Positions 27,101 through 33,100 of a DNA stretch of 64,000 bases are shown here, one piece after another. Origin of the DNA: Escherichia coli (lineage in GTDB: Bacteria > Pseudomonadota > Gammaproteobacteria > Enterobacterales > Enterobacteriaceae); NCBI RefSeq assembly GCF_017348835.2, contig NZ_CP071375.1. One strand, written 5' to 3'. Position 1 is the stretch's first letter. The number at the start of each line of letters is the position of its first letter. Made by a program: the position numbers.

Positions 27101-30100
27101 TCCTTCAGTGCATCATCATCGCCAGTATGAATTTCCGGCGCAATTCCTGTTTCACCAGGTCCAACAAATACTGCTCGGCGATCTATCAGCCAACGCCCAC
27201 GAATTTTTTGTGGTCTTGGAACGATGTATCCTAGTTTTCCGTATTTCACCAGGGTAGTGTTTGTTATTGGGAGACTGAACCGTTTTGGCTTCCACTCATC
27301 GAGCGTTATCAGGTACTGTTCGCTCATGGCTATCACTCCGGAACGCGCCAGTTGCAGAATACCAACGACAACTGGCGACGGTTGAACATTAAAAATCAGC
27401 CTGACTCGGGATCAGTTTTTGCCAGATAACTGAAACGTATTTTGCCTGATAACGGGCGTCATCAAGTGCATTATGGCGCTCACCTTCGAATGGAATAGCC
27501 GTTCTGGCATCGAAGTCTATGGCTTTCCCCAGCTCAACGATTGTGCGTACATCGCGATCGTTGTAGTAACGCCACGGGCAGGGGATCCCCTGCCGTTCGT
27601 ATGAACGGCGCAAAATCGTGTTATCGAAGTTGGCTCCATTTCCCCAGACCTGAACAAAAAATTCACCGGAGTTTTCGTCGATAAATTCCCGCAATTGTAA
27701 CAGTGCATCATCTAACGGGATTTCATCGGTCATAATGGCAGATTGCGCTTCGCGTGATTGCTTAAGCCACCATTTAATGGTGTCCCGATCAATGACTCCG
27801 CCAGCAGTTTCCAGATCGATAGTCTTACTAAATTCCGGTCCCATATCTCCGGTTTGCGGATCGAAAAATATTGCACCTATTGAGATGATCGGGGCATCAG
27901 GATTTTTTCCCATGGTTTCAAGGTCGATCATTAGATGGTCACACGTCCTGCTGGTGGATGTGATTTCTTGATGACCGTTCACCTTAATTGAGTGATCTGC
28001 CGTCTCGCCAGTTTCACTATCGCTGGCATGATGCTGATTGCCGCCAGTGTTCTCCTTGTGTGGATGTTCAGCGCCTTCCATTTTCTCCGGATCATCTTCC
28101 TGAACTTCAACCTGATACTCTTCATCGAATGTTTCCTGGTATGTTGCGTCGCCCATCACCGCGCCACAATCAGGGCAGTTGCCGCCGCCGGTCTGACCGC
28201 AGGCGGTGCAGGCTTTTTCCACTTCCTGTTGCGCCACTGGTTCAGGCTGTTTCGTTTCTGGCTCGTTTTGTAACGCATTTGGGCTGTTTTGTTCCGCTTT
28301 TTGGTAGTTCCGTTCCGATTCATGCTGGTTCTGGTTTACAGAATCGCGGGTCTGGATCCCCTTAACCCATTTCGGATCATTCGGGTCGCTAATCCCTGCA
28401 ACAAATTCTCCGCGAGAGGCAGCAAGCAACTTATCGGCGTCAGGCTGGCTGATATTGGCTGCCTGCATAATTTTGTTTACTTCGTCAGCGGTAACTTTTA
28501 CCGGCTCTGGTTGTGCGGTCGTGTCAGATGCACCAGTATTTTGTTGTGAACCTGAGTATGTACTGTTTTTGCGGGCGAAATATTCTTCTTTCGTGATTTC
28601 AGTAGCCCCGGCAGCCAGTGCCTTATCCAGACCAGAAAGTTTGTTTGCGCGACCGTATTTTTCGCCATCCTTGTCGGTGAAGAGGAAGTAGAACGGCCCC
28701 TCACGCTCTACAGATGGTTCGACTTCCACTTTGCATTCGGTTTTTTCGTTGTCCGGAATTGCCGTTTCCACTGCATCAGTTTCTGGTACTGGCGACGAGA
28801 GAGTATCAGTTGCGCTCTGATTTGTTCCTTCATCTTCAAACACGCCCTTTGTAGTCAGGTATTCAGTAATGTATTTGTTCAGTGCCACAGGGTCTTTGTG
28901 AATGTCGATCGGACGTTCACGGACAAGGCCAAAAATAGTCTGGCGGTCGTAGCGAAGGGCATCAGGCTGTTTGCGCATTGATGCCGAGATACGCTTCCAG
29001 TCTTCGCGGTCGTTGTCGATAACTTCATTTTTTGCCCAGCGATGGATGCTGCCGTCAATGTTTCCGGCATCCACATCACCAGGCCAGAGAGCGTAGGCCA
29101 GTTCGTCATCCAGTGTTTTCCATGTCTGCTTGTATTCGCGATGAATGGCAGCAATGACCGGGCTGATTTTTCCTGTTGAATTTTCAGTGTGCTGTTGATT
29201 GGTTCTGGCGCGGGCGAGATCAACAACAGACGTGTATTTTCCGGTTTCCTTGCGTTCACCTTCGCGACGTTTTTTCCAGATGCGCATCTCTGCCTGAATT
29301 TCGGGCCATTTGGCACCAGGCTTACATTTATGCTTAACCCACCCGATGGCATGCAGCTTAAGCTCCGGATACATGGCGTTAACTTCTGGCATTTTCATCA
29401 ACGCTTCAACGATATGTCCGTCGAATGTTGCCATGTCTTCCTGCAACAATTCCTGTGCGCTAATAACCATATCAACGGTGATGTTTTCACATGTGTCGAA
29501 CTTAACCATGACAGCGTTCTGTACTTCAGGGGCCAGCTTGTCAAAAGTGACGTTCATCGGATCTGATTCAGTCTCAACCGGAACAAAGGAAGCAGACTCC
29601 TCATCCCAGCGGTTTTCCTGCATATATTCAGCATCCCATGAATCGAGGGCAGGGCGGGGTATGCCAGGTTTATCCTCGCAGATAATAAATTTATAAGCGC
29701 AGTCCTGAGCAGCCGGATAATGTTCCAGGAATTGCCAGTGAAATTTTGCTCGAGCACGGCGTTCGTCGCCAGCTTCAATAGCTGTGGCTACAGCCACAGC
29801 GCCTTCTTCCCTTGTTGCCAGTTCGTCAGGAATGGCGGCGCAAATAAAGACTTTACTCATTTTGTTTTAACCTCATGACAGATTTAAGGATGAACAAATC
29901 CCTGCCATTGCTGGCATATAAGAATGAAACCGGATATTTATTACGGAACTGTTTTAAAGACCTGCCGGGATTTCGATATTATCCTGGTGAATAACTTTAT
30001 CGACCGGGTAACAGTTACCGGGAATTTTCTGTTCGGTTGCTGCAGTCATACACTCCTGCATTGTCCTGTGAACACTGACTGCAATATCAACTGGCTCTCC

Positions 30101-33100
30101 GGAAACAAGAAAAACTGTCAGAACAAGTGCAAATGCTGTATTCATTGCCAGCATCCTTTTTGTATCGGACGTAAACGGGCCAACATTGAAAGAATGCATA
30201 TTTTATTTAATAGCTCCCGTTCGTGTTTTCTCTTGTTAATGGCATCTTCAGTAAATACAGGGTTACTGATAGTGACACCAATTTCAAAACAACCTTCAGA
30301 CGTATTAACGTTTGGTAATAACGTTTTCATTATCGCGCCCTCAACAATGAGTTTTGTGATGCGGTGCCTGGTGCCTCCAGGTGACGTTAACCAGTTAACA
30401 ACTAACGCCGGATACAGAGAATCCAACCATAACACTGTTTTTGGTTTTAACTGTTCCGCGTGCGCTTAGCCGCATTCACCGCATCACAAAATTCACTTTA
30501 AAAAGGGCGGCAGAGCAGTCACGGAGTAAAACTGATACCGCCAAACGTCACCAGAAAATTGATAACAGAGGGCGTTGCAGCGGGGTTGTCACTTAAGCGT
30601 ATGGTCAACCTGACAACCCGGTGTCCTCAACGGGGGAAGGAATAACCCCGCCATACTTACCGCCGCGCCATTTCGCGGATTGCCACAACCAGAAGCGCAC
30701 GGTCGAAGAAATTTAACGACAAGACTTATATGCAAAGGGATCTCGCCGTGCGCTTTCGTGTTATGCCCTGACTTTTCAGGGTAAATTAACCTGTGGAAAC
30801 CTGTTTTTACTGGCGCTAATCAGTTAGCGTTTCTGGCTAACCAGCGATGCGCGGCAGCTTCGGTTTTAAACGTTTTACTTTTGGTATACGTCATCGCGGT
30901 AAACGTGCCGTCCTGATTGGGAAACACGCCACATACCAGAGATTCGTTGTTGCCAAGCTCGATAGTATCCATGCTGACCTCATTTCCCCTTAACGCTGGG
31001 GTAGCGGAACTAAAAACCTGCTGCGCTGTTATACAAAGTGTTCCCGCCGTCATGTTCATACGCCTCGGGCTGGCTACTTAATCCCTGACCACAGCCGGGT
31101 AACTCTAGGTATTGCCCTGTATTGTGTGGGACGGGATGGGTTGGTATGGGAAAACTATAGGAAATGCCTAATTGCTTGTCAATAGGCCATGCCTAATGAT
31201 TTGGGTGCGACCTAATAGGTGATGGTTTGTGGGAGAGATAGTAGGAGTTAACTAACGGGAACTAGGAATTTCCCGTCGGACCATATAAGTTTAAGTTCCT
31301 GTCTTGGTGATGTTCTGGCTTTTCCGTTTTGATTCTTGATTTTTCAGATAGTTAGCTACCTTCATTTCCATTGCGGCAATGTAGGCGCGAACGTCATGAT
31401 CAACCCAACTAGGCTCCGTAGCATTTCCAGATAAGAGGAAAGCCACAATTGCTCTTTTTTCATCAGAGGCGGCTTGATAAAGGCTGTTTATGTCTAAAAG
31501 TTCACTTTTTGTATCTGAAGTGGATGGGGTTGGTATGGGGTATTCGTTAAGCCCCCAATGCTCTGGACCAACCACATCAGAAAAGAAACGCCATAGTTCT
31601 GGAAGTTTGTCTTTACTTATCGAACCTTTCTTAATCCAGTCATGGATTGATGGTGGTTGGACTTTGAAATGACGTGCGATTTCCGCCTTTGATTTGACGG
31701 CTCCTGATGCAATTTTTTTGTTAATGGCCTGCTCTATCGCTCGGCCTAAGTCTTTACCACTAAGCATTGCTTAATAGTCTCCTATGCGCATCGCGTTAGG
31801 CAATCCCTACTCTCGAAGCGTTAGGCATAGCCTATTGACAATCGCATTAGGCTAAGCCTAATATTATTGTGTGTTTTTTGGAGTTCATTCGATGAAAAAA
31901 GATAACTATTCATTCAAACGAGCTTGTGCTGTTGTCGGTGGGCAATCAGCAATGGCTAGGCTTTTAGGTGTATCTCCTCCAAGCGTAAATCAATGGATCA
32001 AAGGTGTACGTCAGTTGCCTGCTGAGAGATGTCCTGCGATTGAACGAGCAACAAAAGGTGGTGTCCTGTGTGAAGAACTTCGTCCTGATGTTGATTGGAC
32101 ATACTTACGACGCTCGTCATGTTATTCGCAGAATATGTCGATGAAGCAACCAAATGACGAAAACGATCATACCCGAAGCATCAAGAGGCAAATGATTCAT
32201 GAAAATCAAACATGAGCACATCCGCATGGCGATGAATGCCTGGGCATATCCTGATGGTGAGAAAGTTCCGGCAGCTGGAATAACCCAGGCTTATTTTGAG
32301 TTGGGTATGACGTTCCCAGAACTGTATGACGACAGCCATCCGGAAGCCCTGGCTCGCAATACCCAGAAAATTTTCCGCTGGGTAGAGAAAGACACCCCTG
32401 ATGCAGTTGAAAAAATTCAGGCGTTGTTACCAGCGATCGAAAAGGCAATGCCACCTTTGCTGGTGGCCAGAATGCGCAGCCACAGTTCAGCTTATTTTCG
32501 GGAGCTGGTGGAGACGCGGGAGCGACTGGTGAGAGACGCTGATGATTTTGTCGCAGTGGCAATCGCCGGTTTCAATCAGATGAACCGTGGTGGCCCGGCA
32601 GGAAATGCTGTGGCAGTGCATTGAGTGATAATAGCCATATCGAATCGCTTCCGGCAACTCGTGAGTAAAAAGATTCGGTATCAGAAGAGGTGAGTATGGC
32701 TAACGCCTGGCTCAGATTATGGCATGACATGCCAAATGACCCTAAGTGGCGAACAATTGCCAGGGTGTCAGGGCAGCCAATTGCAACAGTGATGGCAGTG
32801 TATATCCACCTCCTGGTGAGCGCGTCACGAAATGTCACGCGAGGTCACATTGATGTCACGACAGAAGATTTGGCAAGTGCGCTCGACGTGACAGAAGAGG
32901 TAATTGATTCAATTTTGCAGACGATGCAGGGGCGGGTACTTGATGGTGATTTAATCACTGGATGGGAAAAACGCCAGGTGCTTAAAGAGGACAACGGCAA
33001 TATTTCGCAAACCGCAAAATCTCCTGCAGAGCGCAAGAGGGCGCAGCGAGAGAGGGAAAGAAAGCGGGAACAAAATGGCGATTGTCACGGCGCGTCACGA

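What the first reader, a model, noticed from the sequence alone, without database searches (positions are those of the whole stretch)
29954..30557. dicF sRNA - dicB - ydfD division-inhibition module in the early-left operon
The minus strand carries a sequence matching the DicF sRNA as I recall it, with an intrinsic terminator, followed by DicB and an ATGA-coupled YdfD-like ORF. Both DicF and DicB target FtsZ ring assembly, so derepression of this prophage would be expected to block host division.
Basis: partly seen in the sequence, partly recalled or inferred. Interest (0 to 1): 0.5.

Follow-up and report, generated by a model that had tools for sequence, protein, structure and literature searches.

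The report
Prophage dicF-dicB-ydfD cell-division inhibition cassette

Summary
On the minus strand, Rfam's DicF model matches 30556..30505 over its full length (76.7 bits, gathering score 48, E 3.6e-15). The 53-nt MG1655 dicF maps to 30557..30505 at 100% identity, as do 64 nt upstream and 18 nt downstream.

dicB (30330..30142, 62 aa) passes the NCBIfam DicB cutoff and is 90% identical to K-12 DicB. ydfD (30145..29954, 63 aa) is 97% identical to K-12 YdfD and overlaps the dicB stop in ATGA.

The cassette lies in the leftward early operon: racR, a promoter-like site, a ydfA-like gene, a leader, dicF, dicB, ydfD, an exonuclease, xis and int.

It differs from K-12 Qin in three ways:
- ydfB and ydfC are absent.
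- The repressor is a RacR equivalog, not DicA.
- The promoter-like site upstream of ydfA carries two copies of the published RacR operator.

Both stems that hold the mapped K-12 RNase III cuts are present.

The cassette matches 4761 of 5426 complete E. coli genomes (3279 of them over at least 80% of the query), and it is found in isolated temperate phages. It is already known and correctly interpreted, so interest is low.

The parts
31291..31767 (-). racR-type immunity repressor gene (158 aa), immediately upstream of the operon
   Evidence: NCBIfam NF049929 RacR equivalog, 246.8 bits against a cutoff of 200. Annotated racR in a 99.3%-identical RefSeq record.
31154..31182 (-). Promoter-like site (TTGACA-17-TATAGT), the predicted leftward early promoter of the ydfA-dicF-dicB-ydfD operon
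   Evidence: It matches 11 of 12 consensus positions. It is conserved in K-12 Rac downstream of racR. The transcription start has not been mapped.
31158..31196 (.). Two RacR-operator-like inverted repeats (31183-31196, TTAGGCATGGCCTA, and 31158-31171, TTAGGCATTTCCTA) overlapping the -35 and -10 hexamers
   Evidence: The pattern TTAGGC-N4-CCTA gives 9 matches against 2.24 expected, and 0 of 100 shuffles reach 9. Eight of the nine lie at the two promoters flanking racR. They match the published RacR operator (T/A)TAGGC-n3-GCCTA(T/A) (PMC9638921).
30820..30972 (-). ydfA/ydaF-like DUF1391 gene, the first gene of the operon
   Evidence: Annotated as a DUF1391 family protein in near-identical records. 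It aligns with K-12 ydaF. YdfA-like sequence is present upstream of dicF in most viral loci.
30684..30765 (-). Leader hairpin (23 bp), the predicted RNase III substrate that gives the 5' end of the 190-nt DicF precursor
   Evidence: The hairpin appears in the MFE fold. A 190-nt species ending at 30505 would start at 30694, inside the 3' arm. RNase III generates that end in K-12 (PMC10448788). 96.9% of cells are paired across 92 sequences.
30505..30557 (-). dicF, the 53-nt small RNA, including its terminator stem (30542-30506). A T5 run follows at 30504-30500.
   Evidence: Rfam RF00039, 76.7 bits, E 3.6e-15. 100% identical to MG1655 b1574. It is the commonest allele, 72 of the 120 sequences tallied.
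30346..30497 (-). dicF-dicB spacer enclosed by a 20-bp long-range stem (30497-30477 paired with 30366-30346), the predicted RNase III substrate that gives the 72-nt DicF 3' end
   Evidence: The stem appears in the MFE fold. A 72-nt 3' end falls at about 30486, in the 5' arm (PMC5069750). 99.2% of cells are paired. The variable pairs change only through wobble-compatible states (CG 52, UG 36, UA 2; GC 70, GU 22).
30142..30330 (-). dicB, a 62-aa division inhibitor translated from an internal in-frame ATG of a 97-codon ORF
   Evidence: NCBIfam NF049927, 131.8 bits against a cutoff of 100. 56/62 identical to K-12 DicB. It keeps all 19 positions that are invariant among the 62-aa alleles.
29954..30145 (-). 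ydfD, a 63-aa lysis protein whose start overlaps the dicB stop in ATGA
   Evidence: 61/63 identical to K-12 YdfD. Pfam DUF1482, E 2.3e-26. PGAP names it 'lysis protein YdfD' in identical records.
27389..29860 (-). 823-aa exonuclease gene, the next gene of the same leftward operon (context; xis and int follow)
   Evidence: ORF list. Annotated as an exonuclease. A similar gene lies downstream in 68 of 73 viral loci.

Best explanation
This is a standard dicBF cassette in the leftward early operon of a lambdoid prophage integrated next to potC.

In the lysogen, the RacR-type repressor is predicted to sit on two operators that overlap the -35 and -10 hexamers of the promoter-like site at 31182..31154, keeping the operon off.

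When repression is lost, one transcript would run through the ydfA-like gene, a structured leader of about 260 nt and dicF. Part of it would stop at the DicF terminator. The rest would continue into dicB and ydfD, and probably into the exonuclease, xis and int.

RNase III cuts in the leader hairpin and in the long-range stem of the dicF-dicB spacer, together with RNase E at the DicF 5' end, would release DicF species of 190, 72 and 53 nt. DicF, with Hfq, pairs with the ftsZ ribosome-binding site and blocks new FtsZ synthesis. DicB binds MinC and takes it to ZipA at mid-cell, where Z rings are dismantled. DicB also blocks ManYZ-dependent entry of other phages. YdfD can lyse cells by inhibiting IspG.

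Shown here: the identity and integrity of every part, and the presence of operator motifs and of the stems that hold the mapped K-12 cut sites. Inferred from K-12 work: expression, processing and phenotype in this strain.
For: - The Rfam DicF match is full length and well above the gathering score.
- dicF, plus 64 nt of 5' flank and 18 nt of 3' flank, is 100% identical to MG1655.
- DicB passes the NCBIfam cutoff and keeps all family-invariant residues.
- YdfD is 97% identical to K-12 YdfD and matches DUF1482.
- Gene order and strand fit a leftward early operon.
- Operator-like repeats are enriched (0 of 100 shuffles reach the observed count) and located at both promoters flanking racR. They match the footprinted RacR operator.
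- The leader hairpin and the spacer stem contain the positions of the 190-nt 5' end and the 72-nt 3' end reported for K-12. Both stay paired across 92 sequences.
- The ftsZ leader is at least 99% identical in 5388 of 5426 E. coli genomes, so the validated K-12 target site is expected in the host.
- 98 of 108 viral loci with dicF also carry dicB and ydfD.
- Mechanisms are taken from PMC5069750, PMC10448788, PMC6832061 and PMC8835842.
Against: - No expression data exist for this strain.
- The promoter is only a consensus match, and promoter-like sites are not enriched in the region overall (4 found, 3.9 expected).
- RacR binding at this promoter has not been tested.
- My DicF-ftsZ duplex energy (-38.5 kcal/mol) is no better than shuffled DicF (133 of 1000 shuffles equal or better), so target pairing rests on identity to the tested K-12 RNA.
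- The sequences are too similar for real covariation. In the two RNase III stems, only one of 43 pairs changes on both sides.
- The DicB allele differs from the tested K-12 protein at six positions, five of them in the last 17 residues.
- ydfB and ydfC are absent, so the leader differs from the one studied.
Confidence: 0.9

Rival explanations
1. The cassette is a silent relic. The sequence is intact, but in this prophage it is never expressed at a level that matters, or the promoter-like site is not the real promoter, so it has no effect on the host.
For: In K-12, dicBp is tightly repressed under standard conditions. Promoter-like sites are not enriched in the region. A closely related record has frameshifts in the integrase, a replication gene, the capsid and the portal genes, which suggests decay in that lineage.
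Against: All three genes are intact. DicF is the commonest allele, and the cassette is kept in most E. coli genomes and in viable phages. The window's integrase ORF is intact. The promoter and its operators are conserved with K-12 Rac. In K-12, DicF accumulates in stationary phase even without induction.
Confidence: 0.07
2. The main selected role of the cassette is not division arrest. It serves lysogen benefit instead: DicB excludes superinfecting phages that depend on ManYZ, and DicF regulates host metabolism and, in EHEC-type hosts, virulence genes such as pchA.
For: DicB gives about 100-fold resistance to lambda through ManYZ. DicF represses xylR and pykA. In EHEC it activates pchA and has expanded to four copies. 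The genome with the best match holds four places that match the query.
Against: This complements the best explanation rather than excluding it. The same molecules still arrest division when derepressed. Nothing in the window distinguishes which effect is under selection.
Confidence: 0.3

Closest known systems
dicBF operon of the Qin cryptic prophage, E. coli K-12 (ydfABC-dicF-dicB-ydfDE, repressed by DicA)
   Same: dicF is identical. About 235 nt of leader, the spacer, dicB (90% amino-acid identity), ydfD (97%) and the ATGA overlap are shared. So are the order ydfA ... dicF-dicB-ydfD, the position downstream of the immunity repressor, and both stems that hold the mapped RNase III cuts.
   Different: ydfB and ydfC are absent. 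The repressor is RacR-type, not DicA. The promoter carries RacR-type operators. Downstream lies an intact 823-aa exonuclease with xis and int, where Qin has the ydfE pseudogene and IS2.
Immunity and early-left region of the Rac cryptic prophage, E. coli K-12 (racR-ydaS-ydaT; ydaG-ydaF ... kilS-kilR)
   Same: The racR equivalog is shared. The racR-ydaS intergenic region is 93% identical and has the same operators. The promoter and operators downstream of racR are homologous, and so is the DUF1391 gene (ydaF-like).
   Different: Rac carries ydaG, sieB, kilS and kilR (an FtsZ inhibitor) where this prophage carries the dicF-dicB-ydfD cassette. The function, division arrest from the leftward operon, is analogous but the genes are unrelated.
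dicBF copies in lambdoid prophages of EHEC O157:H7 (CP-933O, M, P; Sakai) and in temperate phages such as mEp460 and Tritos
   Same: The cassette sits in a lambdoid phage and occurs in several copies per genome. The Tritos record annotates DicF, DicB and YdfD at the matching place. The exact architecture RacR + YdfA without YdfB/C is seen in 7 of 106 viral loci.
   Different: Nothing of substance. No phage record covers 80% of the 1347-nt query, because the racR-proximal part differs.
Bacteriophage lambda kil (PL operon)
   Same: It is an early leftward-operon product that blocks host cytokinesis by acting on FtsZ in a ZipA-dependent way (PMC3961180).
   Different: The sequence is unrelated. 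Kil is a single peptide, with no RNA component.

Membership tests
DicF RNA (Rfam RF00039) | Covariance-model score at or above the gathering threshold over the full model | tested here: met
   76.7 bits against a gathering score of 48, model positions 1-52 of 52, E 3.6e-15.
DicF RNA (Rfam RF00039) | Sequence identity to the experimentally characterised 53-nt MG1655 DicF, including the 5' (xylR) and 3' (ftsZ, pykA) pairing regions | tested here: met
   53 of 53 identical, and both flanks are identical too.
DicF RNA (Rfam RF00039) | 3' stem-loop followed by a U run (Rho-independent terminator) | tested here: met
   The stem is -15.9 kcal/mol and is followed by CUUUUU. The simple consensus scan did not list it.
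DicF RNA (Rfam RF00039) | Base pairing with the ftsZ ribosome-binding site stronger than chance | tested here: inconclusive
   duplexfold gives -38.5 kcal/mol, and 133 of 1000 shuffled DicF sequences do as well. The pairing was validated genetically in K-12 with the identical RNA, and the target region is conserved.
DicF RNA (Rfam RF00039) | [quoted passage not shown] | not testable with these tools
   The substrate stems are present at the expected positions, but no RNA data are available.
DicB cell division inhibition protein (NCBIfam NF049927) | Whole-protein score above the curated cutoff, at full length | tested here: met
   131.8 bits against a cutoff of 100, residues 1-62 on profile positions 1-62.
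DicB cell division inhibition protein (NCBIfam NF049927) | Conserved length and family-invariant residues | tested here: met
   It is 62 aa, like all the alleles listed from the 99 related loci, and all 19 positions invariant among the 62-aa alleles are kept.
DicB cell division inhibition protein (NCBIfam NF049927) | Interaction with MinC and ZipA-dependent targeting to the septum | not testable with these tools
   Known for K-12 DicB. This allele differs from it at six positions.
YdfD lysis protein (Pfam DUF1482, PF07358) | Profile match and near-identity to K-12 YdfD | tested here: met
   DUF1482 at E 2.3e-26. 61 of 63 residues identical. No NCBIfam model matched.
YdfD lysis protein (Pfam DUF1482, PF07358) | Lysis on expression through IspG inhibition | not testable with these tools
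   Reported for K-12 YdfD (PMC8835842).
Qin-type dicBF operon | Gene order ydfA ... dicF-dicB-ydfD downstream of the immunity repressor, all on one strand | tested here: met
Qin-type dicBF operon | Presence of ydfB and ydfC between ydfA and dicF | tested here: not met
   Only 263 nt separate the ydfA-like stop from dicF, and there is no homology to ydfB or ydfC. About half of the related loci also lack them.
Qin-type dicBF operon | DicA repressor and DicA operator at the operon promoter | tested here: not met
   The repressor is a RacR equivalog and the operators are RacR-type. Among related loci, DicA-type is found in 43, RacR-type in 11 and neither in 52 of 106.
RacR repressor / Rac-type immunity region | RacR equivalog score above cutoff, divergent ydaS/ydaT-like genes, and (T/A)TAGGC-n3-GCCTA(T/A) operators | tested here: met
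   246.8 bits against a cutoff of 200. The ydaS- and ydaT-like genes are annotated. The intergenic region is 93% identical to Rac. The operators are enriched and match the published motif.

The most novel reading that the evidence does not exclude
The dicBF cassette here is wired directly to a RacR-type repressor through two footprint-type operators overlapping its promoter. More generally, the roughly 440-nt processing unit (leader hairpin, dicF and spacer stem, about 30785..30346) is a self-contained module that recombines behind at least three immunity types. In several loci its right-hand junction falls exactly after the 3' arm of the spacer stem. In strains with several copies, different repressors and induction signals would then converge independently on FtsZ.
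Probability: 0.5. Interest if true: 0.25.

Novelty: already known. Interest (0 to 1): 0.1.

Why it matters
It matters little beyond correct annotation. The cassette is textbook and is present in most E. coli.

Three practical points follow:
- dicF is not listed as a feature in the near-identical RefSeq record, so small-RNA annotation of such prophages is incomplete.
- Any induction of this prophage should cause filamentation and possibly lysis before phage-mediated lysis. That affects how induction phenotypes are read in pathogenic strains carrying several copies.
- The Rac-type operators at the operon promoter give a simple, testable prediction that RacR, not DicA, gates this copy.

Tried and rejected
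1. A DicF-ftsZ duplex energy was tried as an independent test of targeting. It was no better than shuffled DicF (133 of 1000), so it was dropped as evidence.

2. I first assumed the only RNase III site was the spacer stem. The literature shows that RNase III makes the 5' end of the 190-nt species in an upstream hairpin, and also a 72-nt 3' end in the spacer. Both stems are present here.

3. An anti-SD:SD pairing (30574-30568 with 30342-30336), which would sequester the dicB ribosome-binding site, appeared in the MFE fold. It was rejected because the central pair is broken in 76 of 92 sequences and no pair covaries.

4. Covariation testing of the whole leader-dicF-spacer fold was uninformative because divergence is too low. 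93.9% of cells are paired against 93.6% in shuffles, and only 9 pairs change on both sides.

5. The consensus terminator scan missed the DicF terminator.

6. MAFFT placed the window's ydfA against the wrong part of K-12. This was resolved by aligning to Rac ydaF and by tblastn.

7. I assumed the window was identical to NZ_CP027587.1. It is only 99.3% identical, with indels.
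Full report
**Observation.** The finding places a DicF small RNA with a terminator, then DicB and an ATGA-coupled YdfD-like ORF, on the minus strand of 29954-30557.

All of this is present. A scan of the whole window against Rfam gives a full-length DicF match at 30556..30505 (76.7 bits against a gathering score of 48, E 3.6e-15). The annotated MG1655 dicF (b1574, 53 nt) aligns to 30557..30505 without a mismatch. The 64 nt before it and the 18 nt after it are also identical. The RNA ends in a stem-loop (GGCGGUA...UGCCGCC, -15.9 kcal/mol on its own) followed by CUUUUU. The simple terminator scan missed it because the stem is interrupted.

The 62-codon ORF from the ATG at 30330 scores 131.8 bits on the NCBIfam DicB model (cutoff 100) and is 56/62 identical to K-12 DicB. 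It is an internal in-frame start of a 97-codon ORF.

The 63-codon ORF at 30145..29954 is 61/63 identical to K-12 YdfD and matches Pfam DUF1482 (E 2.3e-26). Its ATG overlaps the dicB TGA (caATGAat). The finding's two coordinates are therefore the last base of the ydfD stop and the first base of DicF.

**Surroundings.** Everything from racR to int lies on the minus strand:
- a RacR equivalog (31767..31291, 246.8 bits against a cutoff of 200);
- a promoter-like site, TTGACA-17-TATAGT, at 31182..31154;
- a DUF1391 ydfA/ydaF-like gene (30972..30820);
- a 263-nt leader;
- dicF, a 174-nt spacer, dicB and ydfD;
- an 823-aa exonuclease (29860..27389), xis and an intact 372-codon integrase, followed by potC/potD.

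On the other side of racR are ydaS- and ydaT-like genes, replication genes, a Q-like antiterminator, tRNAs, and lysis and morphogenesis genes. The window is 99.3% identical to E. coli 2013C-4974 (NZ_CP027587.1), not identical to it.

**Differences from K-12 Qin.** Homology to Qin starts about 235 nt upstream of dicF (around 30790) and runs through ydfD. ydfB and ydfC are absent.

The repressor and the promoter region are homologous to the Rac prophage instead. The racR-ydaS intergenic region is 93% identical to Rac. The region downstream of racR aligns with the Rac racR-ydaG-ydaF region, promoter included. Where Rac carries sieB, kilS and kilR, this prophage carries dicF-dicB-ydfD.

**Regulation (inferred).** Both promoter-like sites flanking racR contain the repeat TTAGGC-N3-GCCTA. 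In the window, the pattern TTAGGC-N4-CCTA gives 9 matches against 2.24 expected, with 0 of 100 shuffles reaching 9. Eight of the nine lie at these two promoters.

I noticed the element before reading that the RacR operator defined by DNase I footprinting is (T/A)TAGGC-n3-GCCTA(T/A), with ATTAGGC as the monomer motif (PMC9638921). At the leftward promoter, one copy (31183-31196) overlaps the -35 hexamer and one (31158-31171, with an imperfect half-site) overlaps the -10 hexamer.

The most likely reading is that RacR represses this promoter directly, as DicA represses dicBp in Qin (PMC10448788). Binding at this site has not been tested.

**RNA processing (substrates shown, cleavage inferred).** In K-12, DicF is cut from the polycistronic transcript. 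RNase III makes the 5' end of a 190-nt species, RNase E makes the 5' end of the 53-nt species, and no internal promoter was found. A 72-nt form with an RNase III-made 3' end is also reported.

In the window, a 190-nt RNA ending at 30505 would start at 30694. That position lies in the 3' arm of a 23-bp hairpin (30765-30741 paired with 30709-30684). A 72-nt RNA would end near 30486, which lies in the 5' arm of a 20-bp long-range stem closing the dicF-dicB spacer (30497-30477 paired with 30366-30346).

Across 92 distinct sequences (window, K-12 and 90 viral contigs), these helices are paired in 96.9% and 99.2% of cells. The positions that vary do so through wobble-compatible states. The set is too similar for real covariation, so this is consistency, not proof.

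**Mechanism.** Because DicF is identical to the K-12 RNA, the published results should carry over. The 3' part pairs with the ftsZ ribosome-binding site and blocks translation, which was validated by compensatory mutations. The 5' part regulates xylR. The 101-nt ftsZ leader is at least 99% identical in 5388 of 5426 complete E. coli genomes. My own duplex-energy test did not separate DicF from shuffled controls (133 of 1000), so I do not count it as evidence.

DicB binds MinC and, through ZipA, brings it to mid-cell where Z rings are dismantled. Through the same MinC interaction it also blocks ManYZ-dependent phage DNA entry. YdfD is a lysis protein that inhibits IspG. In K-12, derepression of dicBp causes filamentation that depends on DicF and DicB.

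The window's DicB differs from the tested protein at six positions, five of them in the last 17 residues. It keeps all 19 positions that are invariant among the 62-aa alleles, and its C-terminal variant is common.

**Distribution.** A 1201-nt query (29900-31100) matches 4761 of 5426 complete E. coli genomes. The median is 2 places per genome and the maximum is 10. Full coverage is seen in 3279 genomes. PGAP already names dicB and ydfD there.

The cassette from about 30786 to 29954 is found in isolated temperate phages, including mEp460, HannyBb and Tritos. The Tritos record annotates "DicF antisense sRNA, inhibits ftsZ".

Of 120 viral contigs carrying dicF, 108 have enough downstream sequence to judge:
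- 98 also carry dicB and ydfD;
- 9 carry neither;
- 1 carries dicB only.

The window's DicF allele is the commonest, found in 72 of the 120 sequences tallied.

Upstream of dicF, 43 of 106 loci have a DicA-type repressor, 11 have a RacR-type and 52 have neither. The window's exact architecture occurs in 7. Multiple dicBF copies in EHEC prophages have been described.

**Verdict.** The element is already known. The only mildly new points are the RacR-type operators at the operon promoter and the modular behaviour of the dicF processing unit, and both are inferences. Interest is low.

Noticed in passing
window 31158-31196 and 31796-31861: The published RacR operator motif occurs in the racR-ydaS intergenic region (three copies). 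It also occurs twice at the promoter-like site downstream of racR, overlapping its -35 and -10 hexamers. The homologous site exists in K-12 Rac. I did not find it described in the papers I read.
   Followed up: partly
alignment A5 columns ~580-633 (window ~30350-30313); e.g. L025, L044, L046, L080, L088, L104, L079, L097, L090, L077: In about ten viral loci the sequence diverges immediately after the 3' arm of the dicF-dicB spacer stem, and dicB/ydfD are replaced by other genes. The leader-dicF-spacer unit therefore seems to recombine as a block.
   Followed up: partly
window 41774-42028: STnc100 (41774-41966, +) and the anti-GcvB sRNA AgvB (41967-42028, -) lie back to back downstream of the Q-like antiterminator and two tRNAs (40752-40824 and 40928-41001). 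This layout is typical of Stx-phage-like prophages.
   Followed up: no
window ~41170-44030: Between the tRNAs and the holin, where Stx phages carry stx, the near-identical record annotates a TerB-family protein, a DUF3927 protein and a SASA-family esterase. No stx genes are annotated there.
   Followed up: no
window 37170-37492: A hok/sok type I toxin-antitoxin locus lies inside the prophage. The Rfam sok match is at 37170-37344, and a Hok/Gef gene is annotated at 37337-37492.
   Followed up: no
NZ_CP027587.1 987365-987855 (equivalent to window 30330-30820): The RefSeq record with the near-identical prophage lists no dicF feature. Locus tag RS05345 is skipped between dicB and the DUF1391 gene. 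K-12 and phage Tritos do annotate DicF.
   Followed up: no
window 25971-27089: The integrase ORF is intact in the window (372 codons). It is marked frameshifted in the 99.3%-identical record, which also shows frameshifts in a replication gene and in the capsid and portal genes. I did not determine whether the window's copies of those other genes are intact.
   Followed up: partly
window 8320-8396: An Rfam naRNA4 (nucleoid-associated ncRNA, a REP-type element) match lies in the host flank, just above its gathering score (63.9 against 59.5 bits).
   Followed up: no
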